Source of the DNA: a virus
Lineage: Duplodnaviria > Caudoviricetes
Length of the DNA: 38,819 nt
Virus record (IMG/VR): IMGVR_UViG_3300037424_001022
Location: 1 to 38,819 of that record
Strand: one strand, 5' to 3'
In this document: in pieces, positions 2,026 to 20,837 of the stretch
Layout of the letters: the number at the start of each line of letters is the position of its first letter
How positions within the stretch are numbered: position 1 is the stretch's first letter
Program-made: the position numbers and the translations under genes
Notes under the pieces: generated by a model
Databases searched by the model: none
What the model saw: only the letters and a program-made list of their open reading frames with translations
What the model was told of the DNA's origin: nothing

Positions 2026-2433
2026 ATGAAACAATTATCAGCAATTTGTTTACTATTGATGGTTTTCTTTTCGGTTCAGGTATTCGGCCAGTGGGATTTT
2101 AAGAAAGTGTTAATTCCCGAAACTGCAGCCAGTGATTCGTTTAATACTCCTGGTGATAATGTTTATTTATCGGGTTTACAATTTCCCGATACTACAGGAA
2201 CCGGAATAGGAACATCATTAGATTCAATTTGGTTTTTGGTAAGTTCTAACCCTGCAGAGTTTGGTTGGGACACACTAAGCTACAATGATGTTGTTTATGC
2301 AATAAAAATTACAGGCAAAGCAATAACATTAAAGCTACCGGCAACATTTGCCTGGGAATGGTGGAAGATTTACTTTGAGGATGCTGTAAGCGATTCGGTT
2401 TACTTCTATCCACAATTTAACGATATGGATTAA
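2026..2433 (+). CDS. Small secreted-type beta-rich protein (signal peptide, Gln at +1)
   Basis: TAAGGA SD. N-terminus MKQLSAICLLLMVFFSVQVFG|QW; mature part is aromatic and beta-rich. Confidence 0.75.
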   Translation: MKQLSAICLLLMVFFSVQVFGQWDFKKVLIPETAASDSFNTPGDNVYLSGLQFPDTTGTGIGTSLDSIWFLVSSNPAEFGWDTLSYNDVVYAIKITGKAITLKLPATFAWEWWKIYFEDAVSDSVYFYPQFNDMD

Positions 2434-2471
2434 CAATTATTTTATTCACAATCAATTCAAGGAGAAACATA

Positions 2472-2957
2472 ATGAAAAGGCTATTCACACTCTCAGCTAT
2501 TTTCATATTATTCGCGGTTCTAAGTGTTTCAGCACAGTGGGGAACCAATACCAGCAGATTTGCTGATCAGTCAAAATTGGTGCTTTATTTTGCAGGAACG
2601 CTTGATACATTAGGTCAAACCTATGATTCGCTGAAATCAAACAGGTTTTCACTTGAGGACTATGATCAAAGCGGAACATATTTCAGTTTGAATTACATTT
2701 TTACCAGCACAGCCGGTTCACCGAATACGCTGATAGATTTGTATGGAACTGATGATGGAGGGACTACAAACTACTACATTGCACAGTTAAAAGATACTTC
2801 AACATCAGAAGCTTACACACCTGTAGCAACGAATTTATCAAACTACAGATTCAATGAATATTTTCTGATAATTGAGCAAGTAGCACCTGGCAGGGATGGC
2901 ACAACATTCAAAGCCTGGTTACATTCACCGCAAAAGGATCCGGCATTAAAGCCGTAA
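2472..2957 (+). CDS. Small secreted-type beta-sandwich protein (signal peptide, Gln at +1), possible head decoration
   Basis: AAGGAG SD. N-terminus MKRLFTLSAIFILFAVLSVSA|QW. 'IDLYGTDDGGTTNY' recalls the 'l.gS.DG..w' turn of small phage jelly-roll proteins. Confidence 0.75.
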   Translation: MKRLFTLSAIFILFAVLSVSAQWGTNTSRFADQSKLVLYFAGTLDTLGQTYDSLKSNRFSLEDYDQSGTYFSLNYIFTSTAGSPNTLIDLYGTDDGGTTNYYIAQLKDTSTSEAYTPVATNLSNYRFNEYFLIIEQVAPGRDGTTFKAWLHSPQKDPALKP

Positions 2958-2991
2958 CTATTTTTTAATTTATTAACAAAGGATAGAACCA

Positions 2992-4299
2992 ATGTTAAAG
3001 TATTTTTATGAACTTCTCCCTTTATGGGATAAAGAGGCTGGTGGATCAGGTAGTTCTGATGAAGCCAGCAAGGATGAAAAAGACAAAGAATCAGGTAGTG
3101 CTGATGATAAGTCTCAGGCATCCGGCAGTGATGAACTTGCTGAGATCGAAAAACGATTAGAAGCAAACAGGGCTGCTATTCTTAGTGATTCTAAGGAATT
3201 GAATCAGGGTAGTTCCGAATCAAAACCTGGTGAATCGAGTGCTGCAACCAAACCTGGTGAATCGGGTAGTTCCGATATAAAGGGTAAAATGGTTGAAATA
3301 AATGATGAGTTCATTTCCAAGGCAAAAGAAAACAAGGATTTTGAAGGACTTGAACCCGACCTGGTAACAAAAGCTTTGACAGAAATGAAGGGTGAACCAT
3401 TCACCCCGAAAGGACTAAAAAGCTATGTTCACAGTCAGGTTGCATTGTTAAAAGCAAAATCCGGTGGTGATAATGGTAAAGCTGCTACAGAAACAAAGGA
3501 AACGATTGAGACTGATGGTGATGAGAATATTGATTACAGTGAAAGATTCGATGCAAACTATGGTAAACTGACGAAGGATGAAAAGCAGAATGTTGAACAG
3601 GCAAAATCTAAGGCCATTTATGCAAACCTGAAAGAAAAATATCCCGAATTAAAACCGGAAGATTTAACTAACAGGGATTCATTGAATGATTTTATTTCAA
3701 GCCTGGCAATCAGCAAACCATTAGATGCTGATGATTTTAAGGCCGATTATGCCGATGCAGTTAAGCTTATCAGCAAATCAGTTGATGAGTATGTAGATAG
3801 AACTATGAATTGGGCCGAGTATATGAGGAATGAAGCAAAGGCAGAGTTAAAGAAGTTTGAAGGCTACCTATCCAAACGTGGATTGAAACTTAGTGATATG
3901 ACGGAAGGAGAGGAAATCAATGAAGCTTTCATCATCAAAAACATATTGACCGGCAGTGATAAGAACTTAAAGGCTGACTTAATCAATTACTATAAGGGTA
4001 ATGAAGCAATTCCAATGCTGAATAGAGATAAGTTTTACCAGTCGTTAATCGAACACTTTGACGACAGAGTAATTTCTTTGACTAAACAGGGTGGAATTAA
4101 CAATTATCTGCAAACCAGGAAAGAAAGAGACGGCCATCCATCACTGAGTAATTCATCGGCAGGAGGCAGGGAGAATAAGGATGGAACGACAAAAACCCTG
4201 ATTCCAAACGAAACCATTGATGTTGAGGAAATGGACAAAATCTTGGAAGAAAATAGGAAAGCCATAATACTGGATAGCAAAGGCCATCCATACGGCTAA
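2992..4299 (+). CDS. Capsid scaffolding protein
   Basis: Lies immediately upstream of the capsid gene. Acidic, low-complexity Gly/Ser/Asp N-terminus, helical body and flexible C-terminus. Confidence 0.7.
   Translation: MLKYFYELLPLWDKEAGGSGSSDEASKDEKDKESGSADDKSQASGSDELAEIEKRLEANRAAILSDSKELNQGSSESKPGESSAATKPGESGSSDIKGKMVEINDEFISKAKENKDFEGLEPDLVTKALTEMKGEPFTPKGLKSYVHSQVALLKAKSGGDNGKAATETKETIETDGDENIDYSERFDANYGKLTKDEKQNVEQAKSKAIYANLKEKYPELKPEDLTNRDSLNDFISSLAISKPLDADDFKADYADAVKLISKSVDEYVDRTMNWAEYMRNEAKAELKKFEGYLSKRGLKLSDMTEGEEINEAFIIKNILTGSDKNLKADLINYYKGNEAIPMLNRDKFYQSLIEHFDDRVISLTKQGGINNYLQTRKERDGHPSLSNSSAGGRENKDGTTKTLIPNETIDVEEMDKILEENRKAIILDSKGHPYG
3207..3275 (+). repeat. Short in-frame direct repeats in scaffold linker
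   Basis: AAACCTGGTGAATCG at 3223-3237 and 3250-3264; GGGTAGTTCCGA at 3207-3218 and 3264-3275 (encoding KPGES twice). Confidence 0.8.
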
Positions 4300-4332: not shown

Positions 4333-5748
4333 ATGAGATACAGTGTAATTTTCAAAATACTAGCACTTTGTCTCTTTGCTGTAATATACGCTACCTACAA
4401 TGTTCAACCCGAAACAGGTGTAACCTTGGCTGTAATATCAGGAGGTTATTTGAACCCTAATGTTCAGTTATTCAGAGAAAACCTGGGAACGAAGGTTGGG
4501 TATGAAGTATGGTGGAGATCAAAGCTATCGAAATTTATTTCGTTCATTGATCATGTAAAATACAAAGAAACAGGTGTTTTCTCAGGTATGAAGGGTTCAC
4601 TCCCACCCGAATCGGGAGTAGTTCACGTGGTTAGAGATTTCACCCAAAAGGGTGGTGTAAATTTTGAAATGCCAATATTAAGACCGTTAACAGGTCAAGG
4701 GCGAATCGGAACTGCACCCCTATCCGGCCATGGTGAAAAGCGTAAATGGTTCACTCAAAAGCTGAAAATCAATTTAAGACGACATGCATTAGATGTTCGG
4801 GACAATGAAGTTTCCGAACAGATGATTGCACCGGAAATTGCAATGAAGCTTTTGGAACGTGGTGGCAACGATCTGAAAGACTGGTTCTCACGTTTACTTC
4901 CATTTGATATGTATTTCTCATTGTTACGCGGGTATAGTGAGAATATCACAGATGCAACATGGGGTAGGGGAGTATCAGCAAAAAGCCATCCGAACTCATA
5001 CGTTCAGGGATATGCAACAAATAACGGTAAGGTTCCATGGAGTACTGCCTATACCTTTGATGCTGCTTTTGAGACTAATTATGCTACAGCACTTGCATCA
5101 CTCAGTGATACAAGCAGCAAGCATTTCAAGGCTCAGAGTATCAAAAATATGGTATGGTTAGCCAGGAAACACAGAATACAGCCGATAGTTGTAAAGGGAT
5201 ATGAAGTATTCCTGATCTTCACACATTCAGCCCAAATGCGACAGTTGAGAATGGATTCCGAGTGGACACAGGCACAGCGGGAAGCTGGCCCAAGGAACTA
5301 CTCAGAGAATCAAATTTTCACTGGTGTAAGTGAGGGTTATTTGTTTGAAGGTGCATATATTTGTATTGATGATACAATTCCGGCTGCAAGGGTTAGTGGA
5401 GACACAGATACCACAATATTCGGAACTGCTTATAATTCAAGCTACGGCACTGTTAATTACGGAATTACCAATTATATGGACAATCCACGTGATCAATCAC
5501 CGAGGAAAGCTGCCATATTACTTGGTGCAGGTGCAGTTTTAGCTGCAAATGTAAATGGATTCAAATTAACAACCGAGGTTTTGGATCATGGTCAGAAGAT
5601 CGAAGATGGCGGGACTATGTTCTACGGCTTTGCAAGAACGGATTTGATTGATGATGATAACTTATTAGGCAACGGTGCAGACAAGTTTTATGACAATACA
5701 TCAAGTTTGGTGTATTGGACTTGGAGTCCTGATAATATCCAGGTTTAA
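4333..5748 (+). CDS. Major capsid protein, N4-gp56/DUF4043-like (HK97 fold), with hydrophobic N-terminal extension
   Basis: TAAGGAG SD. Motifs 'RDFTQKGG..FEMPILRPLTGQG..G...LSG.GE', 'LKINLRRHA', 'HSAQMRQLR.D.EW..AQ.EAG.R...NQIFTG' and 'AILLGAGA' match my recollection of DUF4043 capsids. Confidence 0.85.
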   Translation: MRYSVIFKILALCLFAVIYATYNVQPETGVTLAVISGGYLNPNVQLFRENLGTKVGYEVWWRSKLSKFISFIDHVKYKETGVFSGMKGSLPPESGVVHVVRDFTQKGGVNFEMPILRPLTGQGRIGTAPLSGHGEKRKWFTQKLKINLRRHALDVRDNEVSEQMIAPEIAMKLLERGGNDLKDWFSRLLPFDMYFSLLRGYSENITDATWGRGVSAKSHPNSYVQGYATNNGKVPWSTAYTFDAAFETNYATALASLSDTSSKHFKAQSIKNMVWLARKHRIQPIVVKGYEVFLIFTHSAQMRQLRMDSEWTQAQREAGPRNYSENQIFTGVSEGYLFEGAYICIDDTIPAARVSGDTDTTIFGTAYNSSYGTVNYGITNYMDNPRDQSPRKAAILLGAGAVLAANVNGFKLTTEVLDHGQKIEDGGTMFYGFARTDLIDDDNLLGNGADKFYDNTSSLVYWTWSPDNIQV

Positions 5749-5800: not shown

Positions 5801-6079
5801 ATGTTTAGCAAAAAATGCTTAATCCATAACGAGAATCAGGGCTGGATGGATAGATTTGAAATAACCGCTGGTTATGCAGATCTTGAACTCCAGGTGCTTG
5901 GTGCAAACGGTAACACTCAGGTTATCGGTTTTTACAATGGTTCAAGTGGTTGGACTATTGCGAATTATGCTAACCTTCCGAAGGGAACCATAGTTTTCAA
6001 TAATCAGGATCACAAAACCTATGAAAAGACCGGTGCTGTAGGAGTTGATACCTGGGTTGCATCGGCAGCACGTTCATAA
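5801..6079 (+). CDS. Small virion accessory/head decoration protein (putative)
   Basis: TAAGGA SD; directly after the capsid gene. 'NLPKGTIVFN....TYEKTG....W' resembles short phage fibre/decoration repeats. Confidence 0.55.
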   Translation: MFSKKCLIHNENQGWMDRFEITAGYADLELQVLGANGNTQVIGFYNGSSGWTIANYANLPKGTIVFNNQDHKTYEKTGAVGVDTWVASAARS

Positions 6080-6533: not shown

Positions 6534-7100
6534 ATGAGTTATTCTAAACTCAGCAGAATAACGCTTGCAGAATTCAAACGTATCTTGAATACTGATGAGG
6601 TTTTTGCAAGCCTTTCGGATGCCGATAAAATGGCATTTATTAACGATGCTACTAATAAGCTGGCAAGTTTCCGTAATGAATTAGGCAGAGAGGAATTCAG
6701 TGCTGATACGTTAGGTGCTGGAATTATAATTGTTCCAGGTTACGGAAATGTGTTAGTGTGTGCTGATGGACAGGTATTGAAAGATGTTCAGGCAACCATT
6801 ACAGATGCTTCGGCTGGCAATCGGTATAGTATTCTATTCTATCCAGGTGCGACTATTGGATCAGGCTTTGCATTTGCTGAATTTATATCAGTAATATTTA
6901 TGGCTGATTCTGCACAGGACTTAGATTTTGAGGGTGCTGATTTTACGGATAACTTGAGTTCTATGTATGGTGCGATAGTTCATGGTGCAGATTTCACCGG
7001 CTGCACAATCCCGATTTCACTGGCAGACTTCAAAAATATACTTGGAGGTTGGGATCCTGTAACTACTTTATGGACTAATGGCAGTCCATTTGGAGCCTGA
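6534..7100 (+). CDS. Hypothetical virion protein (adaptor-like N-terminus, short pentapeptide-like C-terminus)
   Basis: GAGG SD. 'ITLAEFKRIL...SDADKMAFINDA' resembles adaptor N-terminal helices; 'ADFTD...GADFTGC' is pentapeptide-like. Confidence 0.5.
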   Translation: MSYSKLSRITLAEFKRILNTDEVFASLSDADKMAFINDATNKLASFRNELGREEFSADTLGAGIIIVPGYGNVLVCADGQVLKDVQATITDASAGNRYSILFYPGATIGSGFAFAEFISVIFMADSAQDLDFEGADFTDNLSSMYGAIVHGADFTGCTIPISLADFKNILGGWDPVTTLWTNGSPFGA

Positions 7101-7102
7101 TT

Positions 7103-9916
7103 ATGAAGAAACACGCATATTATTTGTGCATAATTGTAACCCTTTTTTGTTTACAATTTGAAACAAATGCACAGATTTACAAAGCATTAGATTCATTAGG
7201 GAACAAAATATCTTACACTTATAATGTTAAAAGTTATGGTGCAGTAGGAGATTCGGTTACAAACGATTCTGCAGCAGTTTACAATACTATTTATGCTGCC
7301 GATGGAGGTGGAACCGTTGTTATCCCAAAAGGCCAATATAGGGTTGGTGAAATTATTTTGGAGGGATTATCCGATATAACTATAGAGGGTTCTGGAAAAG
7401 AAAGCATTATTGAGAATGGTGGAAATTATTTATCTGCTTTCAAACTAAAAAATTCTCACAATATTACTTTCCAAAATTTCACTATTCGTGGTGATTTTCT
7501 GACAATGCTGAACAATCACGATTCGCAAGCTGGTATTATTTGTGTGCAACCAGGAACTACGGATTCAGTTTCAAACATAGTAATCCAGAATATGTATTTC
7601 AACAATTTAGGTAGCGATGCTCTAGCATTTAACAGTAATGCAACTAATATAAAAATTATAAATAACACTTGGGAAGATGGATTGGGTTTTGTTCAACTAA
7701 TCGGAACTGTGGCAACGCCAGTGGATAATGTTTTGATTCAGGGGAACACAATTTTAGGTTCTGTAGTTTCCGAAAGGGGTGATCCTGGTAGTATAAGTGG
7801 TTCAGATGATATTATTGATATGTGGGGAACAATTAGAAATGTAAATATAGTTGACAATTATTTCGATGCCAGAAGGTTATCTACCGATACAACTTGTGTC
7901 AACCATGGAGTTTTAATTTTAGGGGTGGATAATCCGCTGATGGGTAGTTTTACAAACATCAATATAGAAAACAATACCTTTGTAAATTTCCATAATTCCA
8001 GGCAAACTCCATTTGGAAACACTTATTATACAGTTGGTGCTATTGAAGTAAACCATGCTAATTTTGGGGCCGACTCATCAGCAAGAGGAATTACGATTAG
8101 AAATAACAAATTATATGCAGAAAAAAGTAGAATGATTTTTCTTTCTTGTCCAATGAGTAGCGTGTTGGTTGAAGGGAATGATATTTACGGTGGTGCAACC
8201 GGAATATTTATTTTCGAGAATTTAGGTTACAAATCTGTTATGAAAACCATAAAAAATAACAATATTCAAGAGTTTACAGAAAGTGGAATTTATCTCCAAG
8301 CAAACAACACTTTGATAAAGAATAATATAATCAATATGGATTCGGTAGATATTGCAGGCGGTTATGGGATATTTGCAACTACATGTGATTCTAATTACAT
8401 CATTGGGAATTTAATTGAAGGAGGATCTGCCCTACACAGAGGACTATTCGTTGCTCAAAGTTCTTTTCTCTTTATCGAAAACAATATTTTTAGGAATATC
8501 CCAGGAACGGCAGTTGAATTTGGCACTTATATATCAACTGATAATATATCCTTCAAAAACAATATTTTTTCCAACAATGGAACAAATTTAGTGAATTCAA
8601 ATGTGCAAGATATATTTGCACTCTCGGAAGGTGTTACTGATGTTTATTATGCAGATAGATACTATACGGGTAACGATGGTTATTTGTCCGGTGATGATAA
8701 TGAGGTGTATTCTACGAATAAAGAAGGAAAAACCACAAAGATTACACACAATCTATCTACTAATTTACCTTATGATGTGGTTGACAATACTTCTTTTGCT
8801 CGGAATCAAGCTGATGGAATATTTAATTATTTCAGCAATGAAAATAAGGAACGACAGATTGGAATACTTTCTCCGGCAATAGATGATACGCTTTCTTGTT
8901 GGCTAAGAACAACTGGAAAAATAATAATAGATTCTATAAAGGCAGTTGCAGATGATTCTGTAAGAATTCAGGCATACTTTGGTAATGACAGCTTATTTTC
9001 AAATCCCGAACTGATAAACTTAGATACAACAATAATTACATTCGATGTTAATACAATACCGGCAGGGAGTAGAGTTCGATTATTTTTTACCTATATGGGT
9101 GATTCTGTTTTTGATTTTAGTGCTGTGCTTTACTATCATGACTTAGGTTCAGAAACCTTCTCAAAAAAATATCTTTTAGATACATATCTCCGAAGGGTAA
9201 CAGAGAATGGAGGTGTTATAGTTGATACTCAGGCAGTTGAAAGTTTTTATAATATGATGGTTGAAAATGGGATAATAGATTCAATAAAACACGCATCAGG
9301 AACAAGCTATGGTGTTAAATTTGATGCTGATAGCAATATAATAAAACTATTCGATTTGAGCATTTATAAAAATGATGTAGCACAAATAGATACAAATTAT
9401 TCACCTGATTTACGCTTATCCCAAATAAATGGTTATGGAACGGTTTCTTTTGACGGCACTAATGATTTTATGGATGTTCAAATTGAGAATCTTTCCCAAC
9501 CAGAAACTATGTTTTTAGTATGTAAAGCTGATACTTGGCAAGGATCAAGATTCTTTATTGATGGATATAATACGCAATCAGGTGGAATATCGATGTTAGG
9601 TTCATCACCTTTAATTGGAATATTTTCGGGCCTGATTTCAGATGGAGGCCAATCTATAAATATAGGCTCATTTGATTTATTAACCGCTACTTATGATGGT
9701 GCTAATTCTTCAATACAAGTAAATGATCTCGCTGCTGAATCGTGTTCTCTAGGTGTTGAAAATATGGACGGTTTAACATTAGGTAGAGTTGGTGGCACTT
9801 CGGCTTTGTTTGGAGACGTTGACTTATCAGAACAAATTATTGTTGATAACAATACAAGTGCAACACTTAGGACAGCAATTAAAAATTTCTTGAATAACAA
9901 ATATATAATCTATTAA
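7103..9916 (+). CDS. Tailspike-like right-handed beta-helix protein (pectate lyase-like) with C-terminal ConA/LamG-like domain and N-terminal signal peptide
   Basis: 'YNVKSYGAVGDSVTNDSAAV' and 'VVIPKGQY' entry motifs; many I.NN.I/I.GN.I rungs; C-terminal 'INGYGTVSFDGTNDFM'. Signal MKKHAYYLCIIVTLFCLQFETNA|QI. Confidence 0.85.
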   Translation: MKKHAYYLCIIVTLFCLQFETNAQIYKALDSLGNKISYTYNVKSYGAVGDSVTNDSAAVYNTIYAADGGGTVVIPKGQYRVGEIILEGLSDITIEGSGKESIIENGGNYLSAFKLKNSHNITFQNFTIRGDFLTMLNNHDSQAGIICVQPGTTDSVSNIVIQNMYFNNLGSDALAFNSNATNIKIINNTWEDGLGFVQLIGTVATPVDNVLIQGNTILGSVVSERGDPGSISGSDDIIDMWGTIRNVNIVDNYFDARRLSTDTTCVNHGVLILGVDNPLMGSFTNINIENNTFVNFHNSRQTPFGNTYYTVGAIEVNHANFGADSSARGITIRNNKLYAEKSRMIFLSCPMSSVLVEGNDIYGGATGIFIFENLGYKSVMKTIKNNNIQEFTESGIYLQANNTLIKNNIINMDSVDIAGGYGIFATTCDSNYIIGNLIEGGSALHRGLFVAQSSFLFIENNIFRNIPGTAVEFGTYISTDNISFKNNIFSNNGTNLVNSNVQDIFALSEGVTDVYYADRYYTGNDGYLSGDDNEVYSTNKEGKTTKITHNLSTNLPYDVVDNTSFARNQADGIFNYFSNENKERQIGILSPAIDDTLSCWLRTTGKIIIDSIKAVADDSVRIQAYFGNDSLFSNPELINLDTTIITFDVNTIPAGSRVRLFFTYMGDSVFDFSAVLYYHDLGSETFSKKYLLDTYLRRVTENGGVIVDTQAVESFYNMMVENGIIDSIKHASGTSYGVKFDADSNIIKLFDLSIYKNDVAQIDTNYSPDLRLSQINGYGTVSFDGTNDFMDVQIENLSQPETMFLVCKADTWQGSRFFIDGYNTQSGGISMLGSSPLIGIFSGLISDGGQSINIGSFDLLTATYDGANSSIQVNDLAAESCSLGVENMDGLTLGRVGGTSALFGDVDLSEQIIVDNNTSATLRTAIKNFLNNKYIIY

Positions 9917-9920: not shown

Positions 9921-10445
9921 ATGCTAAAAGTTCTATTTTTCTGTTTATTAACGTCTTTGGGATTTTCTCAAGTGCGTTTTATAAATATGTTAACAAACAT
10001 TGAAGAAGCTGCTGCTGTAGATTCTTGTGCTGGTGGGGTTGATCTGATCACAGGGAATAATACTACCATGAGTGGAGCAAATGATTGGACTGATTATGGA
10101 ATTTGCGGTGCTTTTGATGTTAATTCAACTTACCCTGGTAAATTATATATGTTAGGTAATGGAAGTGCTGATGGTGTATTCAGGGCTGGAATAATAACTC
10201 CTGGAAGATCATATAGAGTAACATTGAAAGCAAGATTGGTAGCGGGTGCATCTACTACAATCAAGGCGGGTAATTACAGTTCTGATAATCCGTTAAATTA
10301 TATGGAATTTACTCCAACATCAGTTGAAACTGAATATACAGATGATTTTATTGGTGATGGAACTAATTTCGTTATTGGAATAAATACCGGCTTTGATGGT
10401 GTTGCTTTTACAATAGATGATGTTACATTGGTGGAGTGTCCTTAG
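9921..10445 (+). CDS. Secreted-type carbohydrate-binding module protein (CBM4/9-like jelly roll)
   Basis: Signal MLKVLFFCLLTSLGFS|QV; 'PGRSYRVTLKAR' and terminal 'FTIDDVTLVE' strands are typical of galactose-binding-like CBMs. Confidence 0.7.
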   Translation: MLKVLFFCLLTSLGFSQVRFINMLTNIEEAAAVDSCAGGVDLITGNNTTMSGANDWTDYGICGAFDVNSTYPGKLYMLGNGSADGVFRAGIITPGRSYRVTLKARLVAGASTTIKAGNYSSDNPLNYMEFTPTSVETEYTDDFIGDGTNFVIGINTGFDGVAFTIDDVTLVECP

Positions 10446-13537: not shown

Positions 13538-14218
13538 ATGGCATTCGGTTCAAGAGTAACAGACTTTCCACAAAGTGCGATAGGCCTTTTTGGATATACA
13601 TTGAAAATAGATCTCACAAGTTTACTATTCCACAAAGTTACAGAAGTGCAGGCACAGATCGGGCCGAGCAACACTCCCGAACCATTTTACACTGAGGAAA
13701 AGCTTGCGACAGTTCAAAGCTATTTGAACAATCCGAATTGTCCGAGACTTGCATTTAATTACAGTGATGGTAATGTAACTATTTTCTGCAAAGAAGATGG
13801 AACGGATATTCCTGCCTGGGTGGGTGCAACAATGTATGAGGCCGGTGATTTTGTGCAAGGTGATATTGGAGGGGATGCAGCATTATTCCAGGCAGCAAAC
13901 AGAGGTTTTAGCGGTAGTGTTGAACAAACGTGGAGTGAGGGAACTGTAGTTGATGGTGATGTTTCGTGGACTTTTGTAAAATATATTCCTTTCAATGATG
14001 GATTTCCTTATGCAGCTACAACCCGCTTTGCAGTGATGGGATTAAGAAAAGCACAGCCAGCAGTTGATGATAGCGATTATCTTGATTTCCCTGATAAGGA
14101 TGCAGACCTGGTAAAAGCCTATGTTATCGGAATGGTTTGGCTGATAAAAAAGAAACTTATTCCATTAAACATATTGAATCAAATCAAAAGTTTGGAGTTC
14201 AAAATAACAAATGAATAG
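13538..14218 (+). CDS. Virion neck/ring-type protein with inserted CBM5/12-like module
   Basis: AAAGGAG SD. Insert 'AWVGATMYEAGDFV...G.SG..E.TW....VVDGDVSW'; adaptor-like C-terminus 'DYLDFPDKDADLVKAYV'. Confidence 0.55.
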   Translation: MAFGSRVTDFPQSAIGLFGYTLKIDLTSLLFHKVTEVQAQIGPSNTPEPFYTEEKLATVQSYLNNPNCPRLAFNYSDGNVTIFCKEDGTDIPAWVGATMYEAGDFVQGDIGGDAALFQAANRGFSGSVEQTWSEGTVVDGDVSWTFVKYIPFNDGFPYAATTRFAVMGLRKAQPAVDDSDYLDFPDKDADLVKAYVIGMVWLIKKKLIPLNILNQIKSLEFKITNE

Positions 14219-14795
14219 CAGGAATCAACTAATATTATCCAGGGTGAGGCTTGCATTAAAGAGACTGAATCAGGCTGCCGAAGAAGATGAGGTATTGTAT
14301 GATTATGCAACCGAGGTTCAGGATGATATATTCTTAAAATGTGATATTGAAAAACCCTTTGAAATAATCCTTCTGCAGAATGTGGCCGATTACGACTTTG
14401 CAGCCGAAAACAAACTAAACATAAAGGCAATCGAGCCATCCTGGGGGGGATTATTTGAAAAGGTGAGCCAGGCTGATTGGCACAAATATAAAGATATTAC
14501 AGGGAACAGACCTTGTTTCTATTCTATCTTTGATCAGCGAATGTATGTAGCACCGGTTCCGAAACTGACTACAGACAAGCTTATAATCAAAGCCAGCCAG
14601 GTAAAAACCATTGTTCCGATTGATGAGAATGTTCCACCGGAACTACCGGATATTTTTGATAATGTAATTGTTTATGGAATCTGTAAGAAATATGATCAGG
14701 TGTTTTTGGGTTCATTCCTGGAAAAGCTTGCTGATGCACGTGAAAAATACGACAATCCAACGGAACAGTTAATTGTTCCCGATGCAACCTGGTAA
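14211..14795 (+). CDS. Head-tail adaptor/ring protein
   Basis: 'G.RPCFYSIFDQRMYVAPVP' and 'PELPDIFDNVIVYG' are characteristic of podovirus adaptor proteins. Confidence 0.75.
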   Translation: MNSRNQLILSRVRLALKRLNQAAEEDEVLYDYATEVQDDIFLKCDIEKPFEIILLQNVADYDFAAENKLNIKAIEPSWGGLFEKVSQADWHKYKDITGNRPCFYSIFDQRMYVAPVPKLTTDKLIIKASQVKTIVPIDENVPPELPDIFDNVIVYGICKKYDQVFLGSFLEKLADAREKYDNPTEQLIVPDATW

Positions 14796-14807
14796 AAGGA
14801 GTAAGTT

Positions 14808-15440
14808 ATGCCAACTGTAAAATTTGATACAATACTGCAGGAATTCAGCAAAAGAATTGGAGATAGACTAGCCAGTGCATTTACTCCTGGTGGAGGTGCT
14901 TTTCCCGAAGGAACCGTTCTTGCAGCGGTAGATGCCATAGCCTATGTGAATAAAGCCTTACACGCTTATCATGGTGCTATTTGGGAGAGTGTTCAGGGTG
15001 ATGTTCAAGCTTTTGCCCGATACTTTCCAGAAATGGTTACTCCACCTGTAACCATTACATTCACAGCCGGACTTTATACTGTAGCTAATCCAAACTTGAA
15101 TTACTTCAAGATATTCGGTGCATACAAATCATCCACAACGATAATCAGGCTGGAAGATGAGAACGCATTACCGGCATTATTCACAGGGAACTATCCGCTT
15201 CATCCACCTACTGCAGACAAGCCTATTCTTGTTGCTGTAAGGGATAAAATGTATATCTTCCCGAATTCAGAGACTTCGGCAAATATATTGTTTGTTACAC
15301 AGCCATCAAACCCGACTAATGGCCAATTTTTAACACAGAACGGAACTTATGATTCACCGTTTTACGATTCACGAAACCATGTAATTGCAACAATGGCAGA
15401 ACAATTATACTGGAACGAAAAAAAACCAGGAGGTAACTAA
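14808..15440 (+). CDS. Adaptor/ring-like tail protein
   Basis: AAAGGAG SD. 'IAYVNKA', 'PTADKPI.....KMYIFP' and 'HVIATMAEQL' follow the same topology as its neighbours. Confidence 0.6.
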   Translation: MPTVKFDTILQEFSKRIGDRLASAFTPGGGAFPEGTVLAAVDAIAYVNKALHAYHGAIWESVQGDVQAFARYFPEMVTPPVTITFTAGLYTVANPNLNYFKIFGAYKSSTTIIRLEDENALPALFTGNYPLHPPTADKPILVAVRDKMYIFPNSETSANILFVTQPSNPTNGQFLTQNGTYDSPFYDSRNHVIATMAEQLYWNEKKPGGN

Positions 15441-16351
15441 TGCCACAATCTAAAATATACACTTTGGCCCAAGCCAGGGGTTTAGTGATCCTTTGGCTGA
15501 AACAACTTAATCTTTCCACGCTGGATTCAGATTTGGTTGATGATTTTGTAAAGCTTGCTGTAAGAGAAGTATATCAGTTGAACAAAGATTCAATCTTCAA
15601 GCTTTATGGAGAAACGGCAATTCTCAGCGATGCTGCAAGTTCATTTGCTTTGGCAACTGTAGTTGGAACTTCATTTACTAATGCAACAAAAACCATCAAC
15701 GAAACAGCCCATGGGCTTACGAGTGCAAGTATTGGTAAGCGGATAATGTTTGGAAAGGTAGTTACAGGAACCGGAGTTGTTTCATATCTGACGATTGCAA
15801 CGATTGTTTCCATCACTGATGCAAATAACTTTGTTGTAAGTCATTCACCTGGTGTAGATATTCCTACAGGCGGGCCAGCAAATGAATTGTTCTATGCAGT
15901 GCTTCCTTTTTCAAGCCAGTTATTCTACGATATATCGAACTTACAGATTGATTCAATCAGAAAGATTACCGACAGCATCAATGGTGAAGTAATTGAGGTT
16001 GATGATGCAAGGGATTTTGAGAACTTATCGAAATTCCCACAGAAACAAAATAAAGTTTACTTTTTCAATCATGGTGATAGAATCGAAATTTACAAAGGCA
16101 GCAATGTAGCAAACCTGGGAACTCATACACTTTACTACTATTCAATGCCGATAGATCCTGCTACACAAACCGACTTCCTGGATATTCCCGATGATTTAAT
16201 GGCACAGGTAATTCAGAAATCACAAAACTTTGTAGTATCACACTTGAAACGAACTACCAGCCAGGTATTATCACCGAGTGTTGAGGAAAAGGCCGGATTA
16301 AGCAGACAGGTCAACATTAACAAGGACAGCCAATTAGAAGTTAAGAGATAA
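15440..16351 (+). CDS. Adaptor/ring-like tail protein with inserted beta domain
   Basis: GGAGG SD and TAATG overlap. Core 'YTLAQAR', 'LYYYSMP...DFLDIPDDL'; insert 'INETAHGLT...IGKRI...SITDANNF'. Confidence 0.6.
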   Translation: MPQSKIYTLAQARGLVILWLKQLNLSTLDSDLVDDFVKLAVREVYQLNKDSIFKLYGETAILSDAASSFALATVVGTSFTNATKTINETAHGLTSASIGKRIMFGKVVTGTGVVSYLTIATIVSITDANNFVVSHSPGVDIPTGGPANELFYAVLPFSSQLFYDISNLQIDSIRKITDSINGEVIEVDDARDFENLSKFPQKQNKVYFFNHGDRIEIYKGSNVANLGTHTLYYYSMPIDPATQTDFLDIPDDLMAQVIQKSQNFVVSHLKRTTSQVLSPSVEEKAGLSRQVNINKDSQLEVKR

Positions 16352-19215
16352 TGCCTGAATTTGAGATAAATGATTTTAAGGGAATTTATGCTGGAACTGT
16401 AAAACCACCGAAATCCGGTGCATCAGTTCTCAGGAACTTTGATTTGAGGAATCAAAGCGGAGTGCTGGAACAGCGTTACGGAAGTGGAAAGGCTTTCGAT
16501 AACAAACCCGCGGGAACTTCAATCAGTGCAATTACCTTTTTAGATGCTGAATGTTTTTATATTCCTGGTGTTGGAAGCGGACAGGAAATAACGGTTCAGG
16601 TTGCCAAAGGAACAATTACATCAGAAAGGATAACCGGATCACAATTTACACAGGCAATTTCTTTAATTTGGGCCAGCCACGTTTGGGATGGTTCAGCCTG
16701 GCAATCGAGAACACACACAGCTTATACCTGGAACTGGTTGAATGAAACTGTTTGCACACGATTAAATGCAGTTGATCCCGCTGTAGCCGGTGATAATTAT
16801 AAAATTGCTGTAGATATACTTGAAGATGGCAGGGCTGCAGCCGGTTACTTCAATGGATGGTATATTGCAAACGAGAGTGAGGGTGGAGTTCACAGGATTG
16901 TTGATTCTTATGTATGGAATGATGGTGTTAATAACAGGATAGCTTTCAAGCTGGATGCTAATGCTATTAACTGGAATCCTGCAACGCAAGGCAGATTGTA
17001 TATAATGAAGAATTACATTCCGGTAGCTAACCTTGTTTCTATGGGAGTTGCAGATCGGAACGATATTACTTTCTTAAAGATTCGGGATGAGATCAGGATT
17101 GCTTTTGGTGCTAAAGCCGATAGGATGGCACTGGCTGTAAGTTATCAAAAGAACTATCTGAATATCAAGGAATTTGATGTTGAGGCTTATTCATCTGCTT
17201 TAATTAGTGCATACTGCAAAACTGATGGCCTGATAGTTACTCCTTATTCCTTGTTGACAGATGAAGTTTCTTTGGAATTAACCCAGGTTGGCTCAGGAAC
17301 TTATCCGGCTGATACTCATTACGTAAAAGCTTCTGCAACTATGGTTTCGGGTGATGAAGTGCTGGTAACTCAGGAAACAAGTCTAAAAACAGTTTCAACT
17401 ACAGCATTATATGTAAATGCTTATTTGAAAGTAGCAACGCTGAATAGACTGGTAAATTCAATCAAATTTTACTACAGCAACGATACACTTCTCAAAGTAT
17501 TTTACTTGATTTTCAGTGATAAAGTAAGGAGTGAAAACCGAGAGGAAAAGTTCAAAGTTAATGTTGAAGGTAGAATGACACTGCTTGATTCTGCACTGGA
17601 AATACATGATCCAGGAACGGCCAGTGCTGCAGCACCGGTTTTAGTTGCTGATCCTGCCAGTGTTGGAGATTGGGAACTTTTAGGAATTCAGGCTGCTTTG
17701 ACAGCCGTTGCTGATGTTGGTGCTGGAAGTGTGAATGTGCTGGATATTGAAATGATTGAGGCAATGTATGGTAATATGTCTATTACTTATACTCCTGCAG
17801 GTGGGATGGTTGGATTGGCTTCCGATACACTTTATGATGCAAGTGTTTGGTTGAAAAGGGATGCAGGAACATTAGTTAGCGTCATGCATATATATTTTCA
17901 TAGCATTGAAACAGGTGAAGTTGGGCCGGTATCTGTTATTACTTTTGATGGAACATGGACTGAATATACTTTTCAAATCCGAACTCCCGATGTAGCTGAT
18001 GTTAGCAAATTAGTATTGTATGTATATTTTGGCAGAAATGCCCTTGGTGTTCTTCCAGTTGGTGAAACAGTGAGAATGGATAGATTGAGTATTAAAGCTT
18101 ACACACAGCACACTATTTCTGAACTTACGGCTTTACAAGCCGAAATGAATAGTGAATTTGGTTATACTCCTTCCCGAAATCTCATCAAGAGTTGGGACAC
18201 AGGATTAGTTACTGCAGGAAAAACCTTTGTAACGAATGTTTACATTGAAAAGCTTTACACAAATAAGATATTCTTTTCTGCCATTGGTGGTGCTGGTAAC
18301 CCAATGTATGATGTGCTGGTAGCCGGATTATTCTACGATGTTGAGAACTTTGATGGAAATGATGTAAAGAAAATTGAACTCCTGGCTAATGCTGATTTTC
18401 TACTTTTACAATCCCTGGCATCACAGAGGCTTGATCCTGATTCGGGTAGAACTGCAAATATTGGATTAAACAGCGGAACGGTTCAGCCCTTCGGTTCTGT
18501 TAATTTTGGTGATAAGATAATATTCCCAAGTAAATTTGATATAATGGCTACAGGTGGAAGTGGTGCTGTAGATATATCAGAAAACACAATCAGGGGATTA
18601 TATCGAGATTTATCGGATGCTGAAATAGCAAAGATGTGTGCTTCCAAGGATGTTTATGGAGGTGCTTATGTTCTGTATTCAGGTAGAGCATCAACCAAGG
18701 AAGAATATATTCTGACGAAAGCCGGATGGATTGAAAGACGTTTGGCCCAGGAACCACAAAGGTATTTTGTTGATAGAACCGGAGTTCTTAAATTTTTAAG
18801 CAATGGTGATATTTACGCAATAGGCAAGAGTTACACAAGTGGTGATAGTGCAGCTGCAATAGTCAGTCTTTGGGAATCAATTATATTTGATGCTGAGGCC
18901 ATGGGTGAATCAATAACCGCTGAAATGAAATTTGTTTTAACTGATTTCTTTGTAGAATACATTTCAAATGCTAATCTCACGTTTACAGTTTATTTGATGG
19001 ATAGTATTGCACCGGTTACACACGACACTCAGATAATCCCAAAATCCACGACTTATGGTAAATTTACATACAGACGGCCATTAAAACAGGCAGGGACTTG
19101 TAGCAGATTTAAGCTTTCGCTTAGTTACAGTGGCAATGGTGGGCCAAGTGAATGTTCAATCTATTCAGTAGGCATTGTTTACGATATAATCAAAGGGAAG
19201 CTTCATGCCCAATAG
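16351..19215 (+). CDS. Tail stabilisation/nozzle (muzzle) protein, P22 gp10/T7 gp12-like
   Basis: 954 aa, beta-rich. N-terminus 'EINDFKGI.......GASVLRNFD....GVLEQRYG' is typical of podovirus nozzle proteins. It follows the adaptor genes. Confidence 0.7.
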   Translation: MPEFEINDFKGIYAGTVKPPKSGASVLRNFDLRNQSGVLEQRYGSGKAFDNKPAGTSISAITFLDAECFYIPGVGSGQEITVQVAKGTITSERITGSQFTQAISLIWASHVWDGSAWQSRTHTAYTWNWLNETVCTRLNAVDPAVAGDNYKIAVDILEDGRAAAGYFNGWYIANESEGGVHRIVDSYVWNDGVNNRIAFKLDANAINWNPATQGRLYIMKNYIPVANLVSMGVADRNDITFLKIRDEIRIAFGAKADRMALAVSYQKNYLNIKEFDVEAYSSALISAYCKTDGLIVTPYSLLTDEVSLELTQVGSGTYPADTHYVKASATMVSGDEVLVTQETSLKTVSTTALYVNAYLKVATLNRLVNSIKFYYSNDTLLKVFYLIFSDKVRSENREEKFKVNVEGRMTLLDSALEIHDPGTASAAAPVLVADPASVGDWELLGIQAALTAVADVGAGSVNVLDIEMIEAMYGNMSITYTPAGGMVGLASDTLYDASVWLKRDAGTLVSVMHIYFHSIETGEVGPVSVITFDGTWTEYTFQIRTPDVADVSKLVLYVYFGRNALGVLPVGETVRMDRLSIKAYTQHTISELTALQAEMNSEFGYTPSRNLIKSWDTGLVTAGKTFVTNVYIEKLYTNKIFFSAIGGAGNPMYDVLVAGLFYDVENFDGNDVKKIELLANADFLLLQSLASQRLDPDSGRTANIGLNSGTVQPFGSVNFGDKIIFPSKFDIMATGGSGAVDISENTIRGLYRDLSDAEIAKMCASKDVYGGAYVLYSGRASTKEEYILTKAGWIERRLAQEPQRYFVDRTGVLKFLSNGDIYAIGKSYTSGDSAAAIVSLWESIIFDAEAMGESITAEMKFVLTDFFVEYISNANLTFTVYLMDSIAPVTHDTQIIPKSTTYGKFTYRRPLKQAGTCSRFKLSLSYSGNGGPSECSIYSVGIVYDIIKGKLHAQ

Positions 19216-19486
19216 GAATTTTAAAAGACTACCAGGGCAGAGATTTGAGACAGTTAATAAGCTGGATGATGAACTGGATAATGTTTATAAACAGTTAAAT
19301 TTATTCAGTGCTGAGGTAGTGGTTAGCGATACATCGAAAGATCTGTTTGAAATTCAGAAATATAACAAGCTGCTTAAAATTAACAAGGATACAGCAACAT
19401 TGGGTGATGTAATTGATTTTGTAGCCACGTTATCTATAAAACTCGGAGAATTGAAAGCAATAAAAGTGAAGGTTAAGGGTGATTAA
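19205..19486 (+). CDS. Small tail-associated helical protein
   Basis: Overlaps both neighbours; 'LDDELDNVYKQLN' recalls fibre-anchor helices. Confidence 0.55.
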   Translation: MPNRNFKRLPGQRFETVNKLDDELDNVYKQLNLFSAEVVVSDTSKDLFEIQKYNKLLKINKDTATLGDVIDFVATLSIKLGELKAIKVKVKGD

Positions 19487-20837
19487 GTCATTATTTTTCA
19501 TATTGATAATATCCGTTTCCTGTTTGGCTCAGGTTACTCATAAAACTATTGGCAATACTAAATTGGCCGATAAGATTATAATTATTACCAGTTTAAGCGG
19601 TCAGGCGGGTAAATACATTAAAGTTAATGCCGGAGGGACAGATCTTGAATTCGGGACAGTTTCGGGTGGACCAGGTGATACTACTCATTATGTTGCATTT
19701 TCAAAAGTTATCGGTTTGATAGATAGTTTACTGGAAAAAGCTGATATTACGCTATTAGCAAATTATTTACCGCTGAGTGTGTTTGATGATTCATTACTTT
19801 CATATATTGCTTTTAATCTTGGTGATGATGATTCGCTAGTAACCGGTGCAAGTGTTATTGAGTATTTAGCTGCACAAAATTATTTATCCGGTGATATGGA
19901 TGATATTCCCGATGGAACTACTTATGTTAAAACTGAAAACAATTATACTGATGCTGATGCAAGCAAATTAAGTGGTATTGCTGCGGGTGCTGAGGTTAAT
20001 GTAAATGCTGATTGGAATTCGGGTAGTGGAGATTCACAGATATTAAATAAACCTACATTAGGGACTGCCGCTGCCCAAAATGTAGAAGCGTTTGCTGCTG
20101 CTTTAGGTGCTGATGATAATTATGTAACTGACGCTGAAAAAATAGTAATTGGTAATACTTCCGGCACAAACTCAGGAGATAATGCAACCAATTCACAGTA
20201 TTCAGGTTTGGCAGCAAGTAAGCAAGATGTTCTTGTAAGCGGAACAAATATTAAAACCATAAACTCAACATCACTTTTGGGGAGTGGAGACATTGCGATA
20301 GGTGGATCGCCAACCGGAGTGTTTGATGATCTTCAAATATCAATTCTACAAGGTGATGGTAATTTAGCAGAAGCAAGCGGAGTTCAAACCTGGGCCGGAA
20401 GTGATAGAACTACTCAGGATGTTTTTACTGTAACTGCGAATACAACTTACATTGTTGAGGGACGGTATATTATTAACACAGGTGCAACTACACACACAAC
20501 TGCATTAGCCTGGTCAACTGGTGCGACAATAACAAGTTTTCAGTATGAAACTTTGTTATGGAGTGCTGCTGCAAATACAATAACAACGGCACAAAGCACA
20601 ACACACGTTACAGGAGTTGCTTCAAAGGTTATCAATGCAACTTCAACAGCAGTTTATACGAACATAAGATTCAAGGGAATTTTAGTAGTTGGTAGTGTTG
20701 CAGGTGGCAGCACAATAACTCCACAGATAAGTTTCTCAGCAAATCCAACCGGAACTTGTTTGATGAAAAGAGGAAGCTGGATTTCATTTACAAAAATTGG
20801 TAGTGATACTGATATTCTAAAAGGAGGATGGAATTGA
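19479..20837 (+). CDS. Tail fibre-like protein with N-terminal signal peptide
   Basis: GTG start. Signal MIKSLFFILIISVSCLA|QV; fibre motifs 'KLSGIAAGAEVNVNADWN..SGD.QILNKP', 'GNTSGTNSGD' and 'KQDVLVSGTNIKTINSTSLLGSGDI'. Confidence 0.8.
   Translation: MIKSLFFILIISVSCLAQVTHKTIGNTKLADKIIIITSLSGQAGKYIKVNAGGTDLEFGTVSGGPGDTTHYVAFSKVIGLIDSLLEKADITLLANYLPLSVFDDSLLSYIAFNLGDDDSLVTGASVIEYLAAQNYLSGDMDDIPDGTTYVKTENNYTDADASKLSGIAAGAEVNVNADWNSGSGDSQILNKPTLGTAAAQNVEAFAAALGADDNYVTDAEKIVIGNTSGTNSGDNATNSQYSGLAASKQDVLVSGTNIKTINSTSLLGSGDIAIGGSPTGVFDDLQISILQGDGNLAEASGVQTWAGSDRTTQDVFTVTANTTYIVEGRYIINTGATTHTTALAWSTGATITSFQYETLLWSAAANTITTAQSTTHVTGVASKVINATSTAVYTNIRFKGILVVGSVAGGSTITPQISFSANPTGTCLMKRGSWISFTKIGSDTDILKGGWN

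What the first reader, a model, noticed from the sequence alone, without database searches (positions are those of the whole stretch)
2026..20837. Seven structural-region proteins, including tailspike and tail fibre, carry Sec signal peptides with Gln at +1: a phage that may export its appendages
Seen: ORFs at 2026 (VFG|Q22), 2472 (VSA|Q22), 7103 (TNA|Q24), 9921 (GFS|Q17), 10447 (IYS|Q16), 10920 (IHC|Q20) and 19479 (CLA|Q18) each begin with a basic residue, a hydrophobic core, a small residue and then Gln. Scaffold, adaptors, nozzle and ejection proteins do not. Known: Bacteroidota signal peptidase I substrates typically start with Gln that is cyclised to pyroglutamate (Q-rule), and tailed phages normally assemble fibres and spikes in the cytoplasm without signal peptides. 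Inference: these proteins are sent to the periplasm. They may dock onto particles at or after lysis (compartment-split assembly), or they may act on the host envelope (receptor masking, capsule shedding). Classic fibre motifs directly behind a signal peptide at 19479 favour the virion role.
Basis: partly seen in the sequence, partly recalled or inferred. Interest (0 to 1): 0.85.

Follow-up and report, generated by a model that had tools for sequence, protein, structure and literature searches.

The report
Exported, sugar-tagged phage capsid cement, spikes
An uncultured short-tailed phage and many relatives start a conserved capsid-region protein and their tailspike- and fibre-like proteins with secretion-type leaders and load them with the host's sugar-attachment motif, so these parts are likely exported and glycosylated outside the cytoplasm and would join the finished particle at cell lysis, a route I did not find described for tailed phages.

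Summary
Observation confirmed. All seven ORFs have a basic/hydrophobic/small-residue leader before Gln (7 of 11 hydrophobic-start ORFs, 1.3 expected).

Additions: the mature chains hold 29 Bacteroidota O-glycosylation motifs against 11 expected, the 21 leaderless proteins 26 against 25. The 2472 protein heads a family of 216 clusters; 142 of 148 examined keep a leader and all 148 a motif. It folds as a single jelly roll like the cement proteins of this capsid lineage, tied with non-viral matches. Three relatives without that leader lack the 2472 gene. In cultured Cellulophaga phage phi18:3, 3 of 12 MS-annotated virion proteins have such leaders but no motif excess.

Best reading: export, glycosylation, docking at lysis (0.55). 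Export itself is about 0.9; docking is untested. A paper already notes signal peptides on capsid and unknown proteins of Porphyromonas phages (PMC10367356). This scan found the pattern before in at least 21 other genomes.

The parts
2026..2433 (+). Leader + Gln22 protein, 135 aa, 4 glycosylation motifs; syntenic homologues with leader in L001/L024 and L026; no family
2472..2957 (+). Leader + Gln22 single jelly-roll protein, 161 aa (family F4), conserved between portal and scaffold genes; likely capsid cement/decoration protein
4333..5748 (+). Major capsid protein (PF13252, phrog_334) with a ~33-residue two-segment hydrophobic leader (4333-4431) ending near xLA; no Gln at +1, no motif excess
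5801..6079 (+). Conserved 92-aa gene after the capsid gene (family F3); leaderless here, carries the capsid-type leader in 4 of 20 aligned homologues
6534..7100 (+). Leaderless 188-aa protein directly before the tailspike gene; residues 43-187 match the C-terminal half of an SU10-adaptor protein elsewhere (43% identity); candidate cytoplasmic anchor
7103..9916 (+). Leader + Gln24 beta-helix tailspike-like protein, 937 aa, 13 motifs; the pectate-lyase-like match starts at residue 41, so no N-terminal head-binding domain
9921..10445 (+). Leader + Gln17 protein, 174 aa, weak CBM_4_9 match (E 0.013, under cut-off), no motif
10447..10917 (+). Leader + Gln16 protein, 156 aa, 4 motifs; no family
10920..11345 (+). 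Leader + Gln20 protein, 141 aa, 2 motifs; no family
11342..11704 (+). Leaderless paralogue of the 10447 protein (E 7e-14), beginning inside the mature region; 1 motif
19479..20837 (+). Leader + Gln18 fibre-like protein, 452 aa, after the nozzle-like gene; 4 motifs, all in the first 120 residues; mature residues 120-179 match annotated tail fibres
42..1709 (+). P22-like portal (probably cut at its 5' end by the contig edge; homologues are about 700 aa); leaderless core
2992..4299 (+). Scaffold-like protein (by position and composition); no signal peptide
14211..19215 (+). Adaptor genes (two with SU10_adaptor matches) and a 954-aa nozzle-like gene (named by position, no profile hit); leaderless core, no motif excess
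35768..36250 (+). Peptidase M15 endolysin with no signal peptide, so release would need inner-membrane lesions

Best explanation
This short-tailed phage encodes seven late proteins with secretion-type leaders ending before Gln and an excess of the Bacteroidota sugar-attachment motif; they are likely exported to the periplasm, likely O-glycosylated there by the host, and at least the cement-like, tailspike-like and fibre-like ones would dock on finished particles when the inner membrane fails at lysis. Step 1 (shown in sequence): leaders, Gln, motif excess and conservation. Step 2 (inferred, about 0.9): Sec export, signal peptidase I cleavage, Gln cyclised to pyroglutamate. Step 3 (inferred, about 0.8): glycosylation at D-S/T-hydrophobic sites by the host's periplasmic system. 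Step 4 (inferred): portal, scaffold, capsid, adaptors, nozzle and ejection proteins assemble and package DNA in the cytoplasm; the capsid protein's longer leader likely tethers it to the inner membrane and is cut off. Step 5 (inferred, about 0.65): after holin lesions the two pools mix inside the outer membrane, and the jelly-roll 2472 protein binds the capsid surface while spike and fibre bind leaderless anchors on the neck, such as the 6534 protein. The result would be a particle coated in the host's own glycan. Glycosylation is not needed for this route in general, since phi18:3 virion proteins have the leader without the motif excess.
For: Leaders: 7 of 11 hydrophobic-start ORFs, 1.3 expected. 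Motif D[ST][AILVMT]: 29 against 11.1 in the seven mature chains, 26 against 25.2 in 21 leaderless proteins; four control motifs 0.93-1.10x. In relatives (410 of 747 ORFs kept after removing near-copies): F4 39 against 11.8, other leader+Gln proteins 91 against 27.2. F4 family: 216 clusters; of 148 examined, 116 leader+Gln, 26 leader without the small-residue+Gln pattern, 6 without leader that look N-truncated; all 148 carry a motif, at one column in 131 of 149 rows and a second in 112 of 149. The motif is used only in non-cytoplasmic proteins (PMC12871550, passages); Ignavibacterium album follows the Q-rule at 77% (PMC5837995, passages). One relative lies in an Ignavibacteriales MAG, whose leader+Gln proteins show 46 against 24.6 motifs and cytoplasmic ones 143 against 124.8 (60 contigs, 367 kb of about 3.5 Mb). 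F4 sits between portal and scaffold in 33 of 38 loci with a leader-bearing capsid protein and 0 of 5 without (three distinct phages; duplicates included). The capsid protein's nearest solved relatives include Pam1 and KHP40, a lineage with beta-sandwich cement proteins (PMC9698820, passages). The F4 model (pLDDT 93.9) matches BPP-1 cement at Z 8.1, rmsd 3.2, 113 aligned of 140, and epsilon15 and KHP40 chains at Z 7.3. 19479 shares 38-58 residues at 52-77% identity with 9 phage records, 6 annotated as tail or tail-fibre protein. 7103 matches phrog_2234 tail spike at E 2.8e-12. In phi18:3, 3 of 12 proteins annotated from MS/MS as structural carry leader+Gln. 6534 domain is fused to an adaptor in another phage.
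Against: No experiment on this phage. The cement match is tied with or below non-viral jelly rolls (XepA Z 9.7, PNGase F 9.3, GOLD domains), Foldseek lists no cement protein in its shown rows, and the F4 profile weakly matches a carbohydrate-enzyme domain (7nsn, E 0.0096). 7103 lacks an N-terminal virion-binding domain and so also resembles a secreted polysaccharide lyase. Motif excess is not significant in 2472 alone (2 against 0.9), 19479 (4 against 3.2) or 9921 (0 against 0.9). The F4 profile contains the motif, so hits are biased towards it. Some leaderless families also run above 1 (F9 22 against 14.0; leaderless capsid set 12 against 7.2). Relatives with F4 or the capsid leader can have leaderless post-nozzle fibre-like proteins (L005, L006, L011), so export of fibres is optional. 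phi18:3 gp085-087 have fewer motifs than chance (1 against 3.9, 3.2, 2.9) and are not detectably homologous to the window's proteins. The anchor rests on one hit. The host is inferred from one binned relative at 41% capsid identity.
Confidence: 0.55

Rival explanations
1. The proteins are exported and glycosylated but never join the virion; they act on the infected cell's envelope (receptor masking, superinfection exclusion, capsule or matrix breakdown to ease release).
For: 7103 looks like a secreted lyase without a head-binding domain; F4 fold matches carbohydrate-binding modules as well as cement; four small proteins have no virion-type match; the Porphyromonas paper reads its Q-rule phage proteins this way (PMC10367356, passage).
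Against: F4 keeps one place between portal and scaffold in 33 of 38 leader-capsid loci; leader+Gln proteins occupy the post-nozzle slot that leaderless fibre-like genes fill in L017 and L018; 19479 carries a tail-fibre stretch; phi18:3 virion proteome holds such proteins.
Confidence: 0.22
2. The proteins are exported and join the virion, but the D-S/T motif is a structural turn or neutral by-product and the particle is not glycan-coated.
For: phi18:3 virion proteins have leaders and a motif deficit; the conserved F4 motif lies at a strand-loop border, where such turns are common (general knowledge).
Against: Only the exact glycosylation consensus is enriched, not D-S/T followed by other residues or E/N variants; Ser and Thr and six third residues interchange at the conserved column; a membrane-anchored, spanin-like protein of a leaderless relative also shows 6 against 0.9.
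Confidence: 0.1
3. The leaders are membrane tethers that are cut without translocation, like the presumed capsid leader, so all parts stay in the cytoplasm.
For: The capsid protein, which has to meet leaderless portal and scaffold, also has a hydrophobic leader, so a leader alone does not prove export in this family; 80alpha capsid and scaffold leaders are cut by a host protease (PMC5744158, passages).
Against: The seven leaders differ from the capsid leader (15-23 residues, one hydrophobic core, Gln at +1); only they go with motif excess (capsid with leader 18 against 17.0); Gln cyclisation and glycosylation are periplasmic.
Confidence: 0.08
4. The capsid protein is exported too and the whole head matures at or beyond the inner membrane.
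For: 43 of 54 distinct capsid sequences carry a leader with a basic start and an xLA-like end; F3 gains the same leader in 4 of 20 homologues; capsid signal peptides are reported in Porphyromonas phages.
Against: Portal, scaffold, adaptors and ejection proteins have no export leader; no motif excess in the capsid protein; DNA packaging needs cytoplasmic DNA and ATP (established knowledge).
Confidence: 0.05

Closest known systems
Q-rule and capsid signal peptides in Porphyromonas gingivalis prophages, proposed family Nixviridae (Matrishin et al. 2023, PMC10367356; passages read)
   Same: Phage genes with signal peptides, five obeying the Q-rule, and major capsid proteins with signal peptides.
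   Different: There the Q-rule proteins are of unknown function and read as host outer-membrane modifiers, and the capsid leader is thought to be cut by a phage prohead protease. Here they are cement-, spike- and fibre-like, rich in glycosylation motifs, and no prohead protease was identified in the window.
Cellulophaga phage phi18:3 gp085, gp086, gp087 (record KC821620, annotated 'structural protein' from MS/MS)
   Same: Podovirus virion proteins beginning with a leader and small residue + Gln.
   Different: No detectable homology to the window's proteins, no motif excess, no capsid leader; the record does not remark on the leaders.
Beta-sandwich cement proteins of BPP-1, epsilon15, Pam1, KHP30/KHP40 and GP4 (PMC9698820; passages read)
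   Same: Size, single jelly-roll fold (Z 7.2-8.4), gene near the capsid gene, capsid protein of the Pam1/KHP40 lineage; some cements are added after prohead assembly.
   Different: No sequence similarity; the passages read mention no signal peptide or glycosylation; binding of F4 to the capsid is not shown.
Bacteroidota Q-rule (PMC5837995 passages; PMC10653852 abstract) and general protein O-glycosylation (PMC12871550 passages)
   Same: Signal peptidase I type leader, Gln at +1, D-S/T-A/I/L/V/M/T motif enriched in exported proteins.
   Different: The substrates here are phage late proteins, with about 1.4 motifs per 100 residues against 0.53 in the sampled host-lineage exported proteins; 'phage' does not occur in the two main texts searched.
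Filamentous phage coat proteins (PMC3185693; passages read) and staphylococcal phage 80alpha capsid and scaffold leaders (PMC5744158; passages read)
   Same: Coat or capsid protein made with an N-terminal leader removed by a host enzyme.
   Different: Filamentous phages are extruded without lysis and keep coat proteins in the membrane; the 80alpha leader is a 13-14-residue L27-like peptide, not a hydrophobic hairpin; neither exports accessory parts for later docking.
Rotavirus VP7 (PMC13043047; search listing and start of abstract only) and glycosylated mycobacteriophage virions (Freeman 2023, seen only as a citation in PMC12691614)
   Same: Outer virion protein made with a signal peptide in another compartment; glycan on a phage capsid.
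   Different: Eukaryotic virus in one case; in the other, phage-encoded glycosyltransferases are implicated (PMC11256854, search listing) rather than export to a host periplasmic system.

Membership tests
Sec/SPI Q-rule substrate | Basic n-region, hydrophobic core, small residue at -1, Gln at +1 | tested here: met
   7 of 7 by own heuristic, P about 4e-5; conserved in 116 of 148 F4 homologues. SignalP not available.
Sec/SPI Q-rule substrate | Cleavage before Gln and N-terminal pyroglutamate | not testable with these tools
   Needs proteomics.
Sec/SPI Q-rule substrate | Host with the Q-rule pathway | tested here: inconclusive
   One relative binned with an Ignavibacteriales MAG that has leader+Gln proteins (22 in 367 kb); PF05096 not found in that incomplete MAG, and it may be the wrong cyclase family (recalled).
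Bacteroidota O-glycoprotein | D-S/T-A/I/L/V/M/T motif enriched in a non-cytoplasmic protein | tested here: met
   29 against 11.1 pooled; individually significant for 2026, 7103, 10447, borderline 10920, not for 2472, 9921, 19479; family-wide for F4.
Bacteroidota O-glycoprotein | Glycan attached at the motif | not testable with these tools
   Needs glycoproteomics.
BPP-1/Pam1/KHP-type capsid cement protein (2472) | Single jelly-roll beta-sandwich of 110-160 residues | tested here: met
   Model pLDDT 93.9, nine strands; jelly-roll matches throughout.
BPP-1/Pam1/KHP-type capsid cement protein (2472) | Closer to cement proteins than to other jelly rolls | tested here: inconclusive
   BPP-1 cement Z 8.1 (rmsd 3.2, 113 aligned) against XepA 9.7 and PNGase F 9.3; no sequence match to any cement.
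BPP-1/Pam1/KHP-type capsid cement protein (2472) | Gene in the head module of a capsid lineage that uses such cements | tested here: met
   Between portal and scaffold in 33 of 43 loci; capsid profile matches 7eel (Pam1) and 7f2p (KHP40) among 6 hits.
BPP-1/Pam1/KHP-type capsid cement protein (2472) | Binds the outer capsid surface as dimer or trimer | not testable with these tools
   Needs cryo-EM or a binding assay.
Podovirus tailspike (7103) | Right-handed beta-helix body | tested here: met
   PF13229 and PF12708 over cut-off; phrog_2234 E 2.8e-12.
Podovirus tailspike (7103) | N-terminal virion-binding domain before the beta-helix | tested here: not met
   The lyase-like match starts at residue 41, 17 residues after Gln24. 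It is therefore called tailspike-like, not a canonical tailspike.
Phage tail fibre (19479) | Shares shaft segments with tail fibres and lies in the tail module | tested here: met
   Residues 120-179 match 9 records, 6 annotated tail or tail fibre; second gene after the nozzle-like gene. Coverage only 6-13% of the protein.
Phage tail fibre (19479) | Trimer attached to the tail | not tested

The most novel reading that the evidence does not exclude
A widespread group of tailed phages builds its particle in two compartments: heads and necks in the cytoplasm from membrane-tethered capsid protein, and an outer coat of cement, spikes and fibres exported by Sec, capped with pyroglutamate, glycosylated by the host's own O-glycosylation system and snapped on at lysis, so that each virion wears its last host's glycan, as enveloped animal viruses do through the secretory pathway.
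Probability: 0.45. Interest if true: 0.9.

Novelty: new variant of a known kind. Interest (0 to 1): 0.76.

Why it matters
Tailed phage particles are taken to be completed in the cytoplasm. Export of a capsid cement and of receptor-binding parts would add a second assembly compartment and a host-dependent chemical coat that could affect stability, adsorption, host range and recognition. It is testable now: cultured Cellulophaga phage phi18:3 has three leader+Gln proteins in its annotated virion proteome, and the 2472 family gives a small, foldable substrate with a conserved glycosylation site. It also warns annotators that a signal peptide does not exclude a virion role.

Tried and rejected
Complex prediction of capsid protein with two copies of the 2472 protein: no answer, score 0.00, no evidence either way. 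No cultured phage matched the capsid or 2472 protein by tblastn. No PDB sequence match for mature 7103; F4 and F3 profiles gave only chance-level or weak PDB and PHROG hits. ESM Atlas gave no usable hit for 2026 and only sub-0.9 hits for 10920. Capsid tree (quick method only; the careful run did not finish): 9 label changes, 105 of 500 shuffles as low; the 'none' label mixes true leaderless starts with about five truncated gene calls, so I draw no order of gain or loss. Promoter and terminator counts in 1-20000 equal chance. No RNA holder listed. Cellulophaga phi38:1: 0 of 17 late proteins translated have leader+Gln. The crAss001 structure paper has no occurrence of 'signal peptide' or 'glycosyl' (PMC10172136, find). 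The 12144-12587 membrane protein was considered as a leader-cutting protease: no Pfam, NCBIfam or PHROG hit and no homologue in the fetched loci; left open. My idea that 6534 begins with an adaptor-like helix was not supported (best E 0.012 among five targets). Artefact by wrong start codon was rejected because homologues keep the leader at under 30% identity. Literature: ten searches found no paper describing export or periplasmic glycosylation of tailed-phage virion proteins; subscription papers are mostly not held, the original Cellulophaga proteomics paper was not available, and I read no supplements, so the gene list behind the Porphyromonas statement is unseen.
Full report
What the window is. 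One contig of 38,819 bases, a virus record, held best by sediment metagenome runs. It is the late region of a short-tailed phage: P22-like portal (PF16510), scaffold-like gene, major capsid protein (PF13252, phrog_334), SU10-type adaptors, a nozzle-like gene, a 4027-aa DarB-like protein and an M15 endolysin. The portal is probably cut by the contig edge, and no terminase gene was identified. No cultured phage matches the capsid protein.

The observation. All seven ORFs have the stated leader and Gln. Of 42 plus-strand ORFs, 11 start hydrophobic and 7 of these have small residue + Gln, against 1.3 expected from shuffles (P about 4e-5; own heuristic, not SignalP). The other four are the capsid protein and three small membrane-type proteins at 12587-13534.

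Conservation. Capsid-protein searches gave 53 loci, duplicates included. Leader+Gln genes recur at the same places: before the scaffold gene, after the capsid cluster and after the nozzle. The 2472 family (F4) is the constant one. It lies between portal and scaffold in 33 of 43 loci that show portal, scaffold and capsid. A profile search found 216 clusters at 50% identity; of the 150 listed I dropped 2 long repeat proteins, and of 148, 116 have leader+Gln, 26 a leader with another +1 or -1 residue, and 6 no leader but look N-truncated.

A second signal of export. The mature chains are rich in D-[S/T]-[A/I/L/V/M/T], the Bacteroidota O-glycosylation motif, which is used only in non-cytoplasmic proteins (PMC12871550, passages). 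Window: 29 against 11.1 in the seven, 26 against 25.2 in 21 leaderless proteins; E-S/T-x, N-S/T-x, reversed and D-S/T-other motifs are at chance. Three proteins are significant alone (2026, 7103, 10447), 10920 is borderline, and 2472, 9921 and 19479 are not. Relatives: 39 against 11.8 in 14 F4 proteins and 91 against 27.2 in 17 other leader+Gln proteins (six from the window); core families run from 0.26 to 1.58 times chance. In F4 the motif holds one column in 131 of 149 rows and another in 112 of 149, at 12% mean column identity, with Ser and Thr interchanging; the profile favours such hits, so these counts lean high. I wrote this idea down before consulting earlier findings.

Host. One relative (41% capsid identity) is in an Ignavibacteriales MAG, which is a binning and not proof. 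In 60 of its contigs (367 kb), 22 leader+Gln proteins show 46 against 24.6 motifs and 168 cytoplasmic ones 143 against 124.8. Ignavibacterium album has a Q-value of 77% (PMC5837995, passages). The phage proteins are denser in motifs (1.4 against 0.53 per 100 residues), which suggests selection (inference).

Are they virion proteins? For 2472: the model from 149 sequences (pLDDT 93.9) is a single jelly roll. It matches BPP-1 cement (Z 8.1, rmsd 3.2, 113 aligned), epsilon15 and KHP40 chains (Z 7.3), but XepA (9.7), PNGase F (9.3) and others score as well or better, and Foldseek favours Eph and carbohydrate-binding domains. The fold alone is inconclusive. It gains weight because the capsid profile's six PDB hits include Pam1 and KHP40, phages whose capsids carry beta-sandwich cements, some added after prohead assembly (PMC9698820, passages). 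For 19479: a stretch at mature residues 120-179 matches 9 phage records, 6 annotated as tail or tail-fibre protein. For 7103: beta-helix and tailspike profiles match, but the helix starts 17 residues after the Gln, so the usual virion-binding domain is missing. The leaderless gene just upstream (6534) has one longer homologue, in which its domain is the C-terminal half of an SU10-adaptor protein (43% identity); it may be the cytoplasmic anchor (one hit; lead from e1-10031965). For 2026, 9921, 10447 and 10920 only gene position speaks.

A cultured precedent. Following earlier notes I fetched Cellulophaga phage phi18:3 (record positions 28,001-71,443). Of 12 proteins annotated as structural from MS/MS, gp085, gp086 and gp087 begin with leader + Gln and the other 9 do not. 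So such proteins do occur in a podovirus virion proteome. They have fewer motifs than chance and are not homologous to the window's proteins, so glycosylation is not the general reason for export. I saw the record's annotation, not the paper.

Natural controls. Three distinct relatives (L017, L018, L020) have capsid proteins that start at the mature N-terminus; none has F4, and the post-nozzle proteins seen in L017 and L018 have no leader. L017 still has a membrane-anchored, spanin-like protein with 6 motifs against 0.9, so host type alone does not force the leaders. Against a strict rule, L005, L006 and L011 have the capsid leader with leaderless fibre-like proteins, and L002 and L011 lack F4.

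The capsid leader. Of 54 distinct capsid sequences, 43 have a leader of about 30-50 residues: basic start, hydrophobic core, short often acidic linker, second hydrophobic stretch ending near xLA, then a GG motif. It ends about where leaderless homologues begin, and the small gene after the capsid gene gains the same leader in 4 of 20 homologues. There is no Gln and no motif excess (18 against 17.0). Since portal and scaffold have no export leader, I infer a membrane hairpin that leaves the capsid body in the cytoplasm and is cut by an unknown protease. This is inference; 80alpha (host-cut leader, PMC5744158, passages) and filamentous coat proteins (PMC3185693, passages) are the nearest described cases.

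Mechanism. Sec export, cleavage, pyroglutamate and glycosylation give a periplasmic pool of outer virion parts. Heads are built and filled in the cytoplasm. The endolysin has no signal peptide, so lysis should need inner-membrane lesions, which would mix the pools before the outer membrane breaks (established holin-endolysin-spanin pathway; recalled). Late, spontaneous addition of tailspikes and decoration proteins is known for P22, lambda and T4 (recalled). Confidence: export 0.9, glycosylation 0.8, virion docking 0.65, whole model 0.55.

What is known. PMC10367356 (passages) reports signal peptides on capsid proteins and five Q-rule proteins of unknown function in Porphyromonas prophages and reads the latter as envelope modifiers. 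Ten searches found no description of exported or host-glycosylated virion parts in tailed phages; the library lacks most subscription papers. This scan has noted the pattern before: 22 findings in at least 21 genomes for leader plus motif and several for capsid leaders; these are unchecked notes, not support. What this window adds is a large conserved cement-like family with an invariant leader and motif, a likely Ignavibacteria host, both leader types in one genome, and leaderless relatives as controls.

Verdict. Real feature; new variant of known parts in a combination not found described; interest 0.76.

Noticed in passing
window 4333-4431: Major capsid protein carries a conserved two-segment hydrophobic leader, distinct from the Gln-type leaders; 43 of 54 homologues have it.
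   Followed up: yes
L010:11202-11609, L034:4233-4634, L035:5019-5444, L036:3232-3642: The small gene after the capsid gene has gained the capsid-type leader in one clade; it ends where leaderless homologues start.
   Followed up: partly
window 2992-3050 and relatives: Scaffold proteins of most leader-capsid relatives begin with a short aromatic-rich peptide before an acidic EGG-like motif, longer and hydrophobic in L012 and L043; absent in L018 and L020. Possibly a processed leader.
   Followed up: no
window 2442, 2970, 5772, 6508, 35750: A 10-base A/T-rich motif lies 8-20 bases before five start codons; 9 matches against 1.35 expected, pattern chosen after seeing it; none in L001.
   Followed up: partly
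window 22830-34913: 4027-aa DarB-like ejection-region protein with methyltransferase, SNF2 helicase and a Zeta_toxin-family kinase-like domain.
   Followed up: no
window 11850-13534: Cluster of small membrane proteins (one with a weak XhlA match), holin- or spanin-like, inserted between the exported cluster and the adaptors; the 147-aa one has His/Glu/Asp motifs but no family.
   Followed up: partly
window 11342-11704: Leaderless paralogue of the exported 10447 protein, overlapping the previous stop codon.
   Followed up: partly
window 13538-14218: 226-aa protein whose C-terminus weakly matches an adaptor family (E 0.0025 among five targets); possibly a fourth adaptor-like ring protein.
   Followed up: partly
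L012:800-1318, L017:1358-1873: Membrane-anchored, spanin-like proteins with 6 glycosylation motifs each against under 1 expected, also in a relative without exported virion genes.
   Followed up: partly
proteins P0102, P0127, P0128, P0131 and others: A subset of the 2472 family has leaders followed by Gly, Asp or Ala, not Gln, yet keeps the motifs, hinting at hosts with the glycosylation system but no Q-rule.
   Followed up: no
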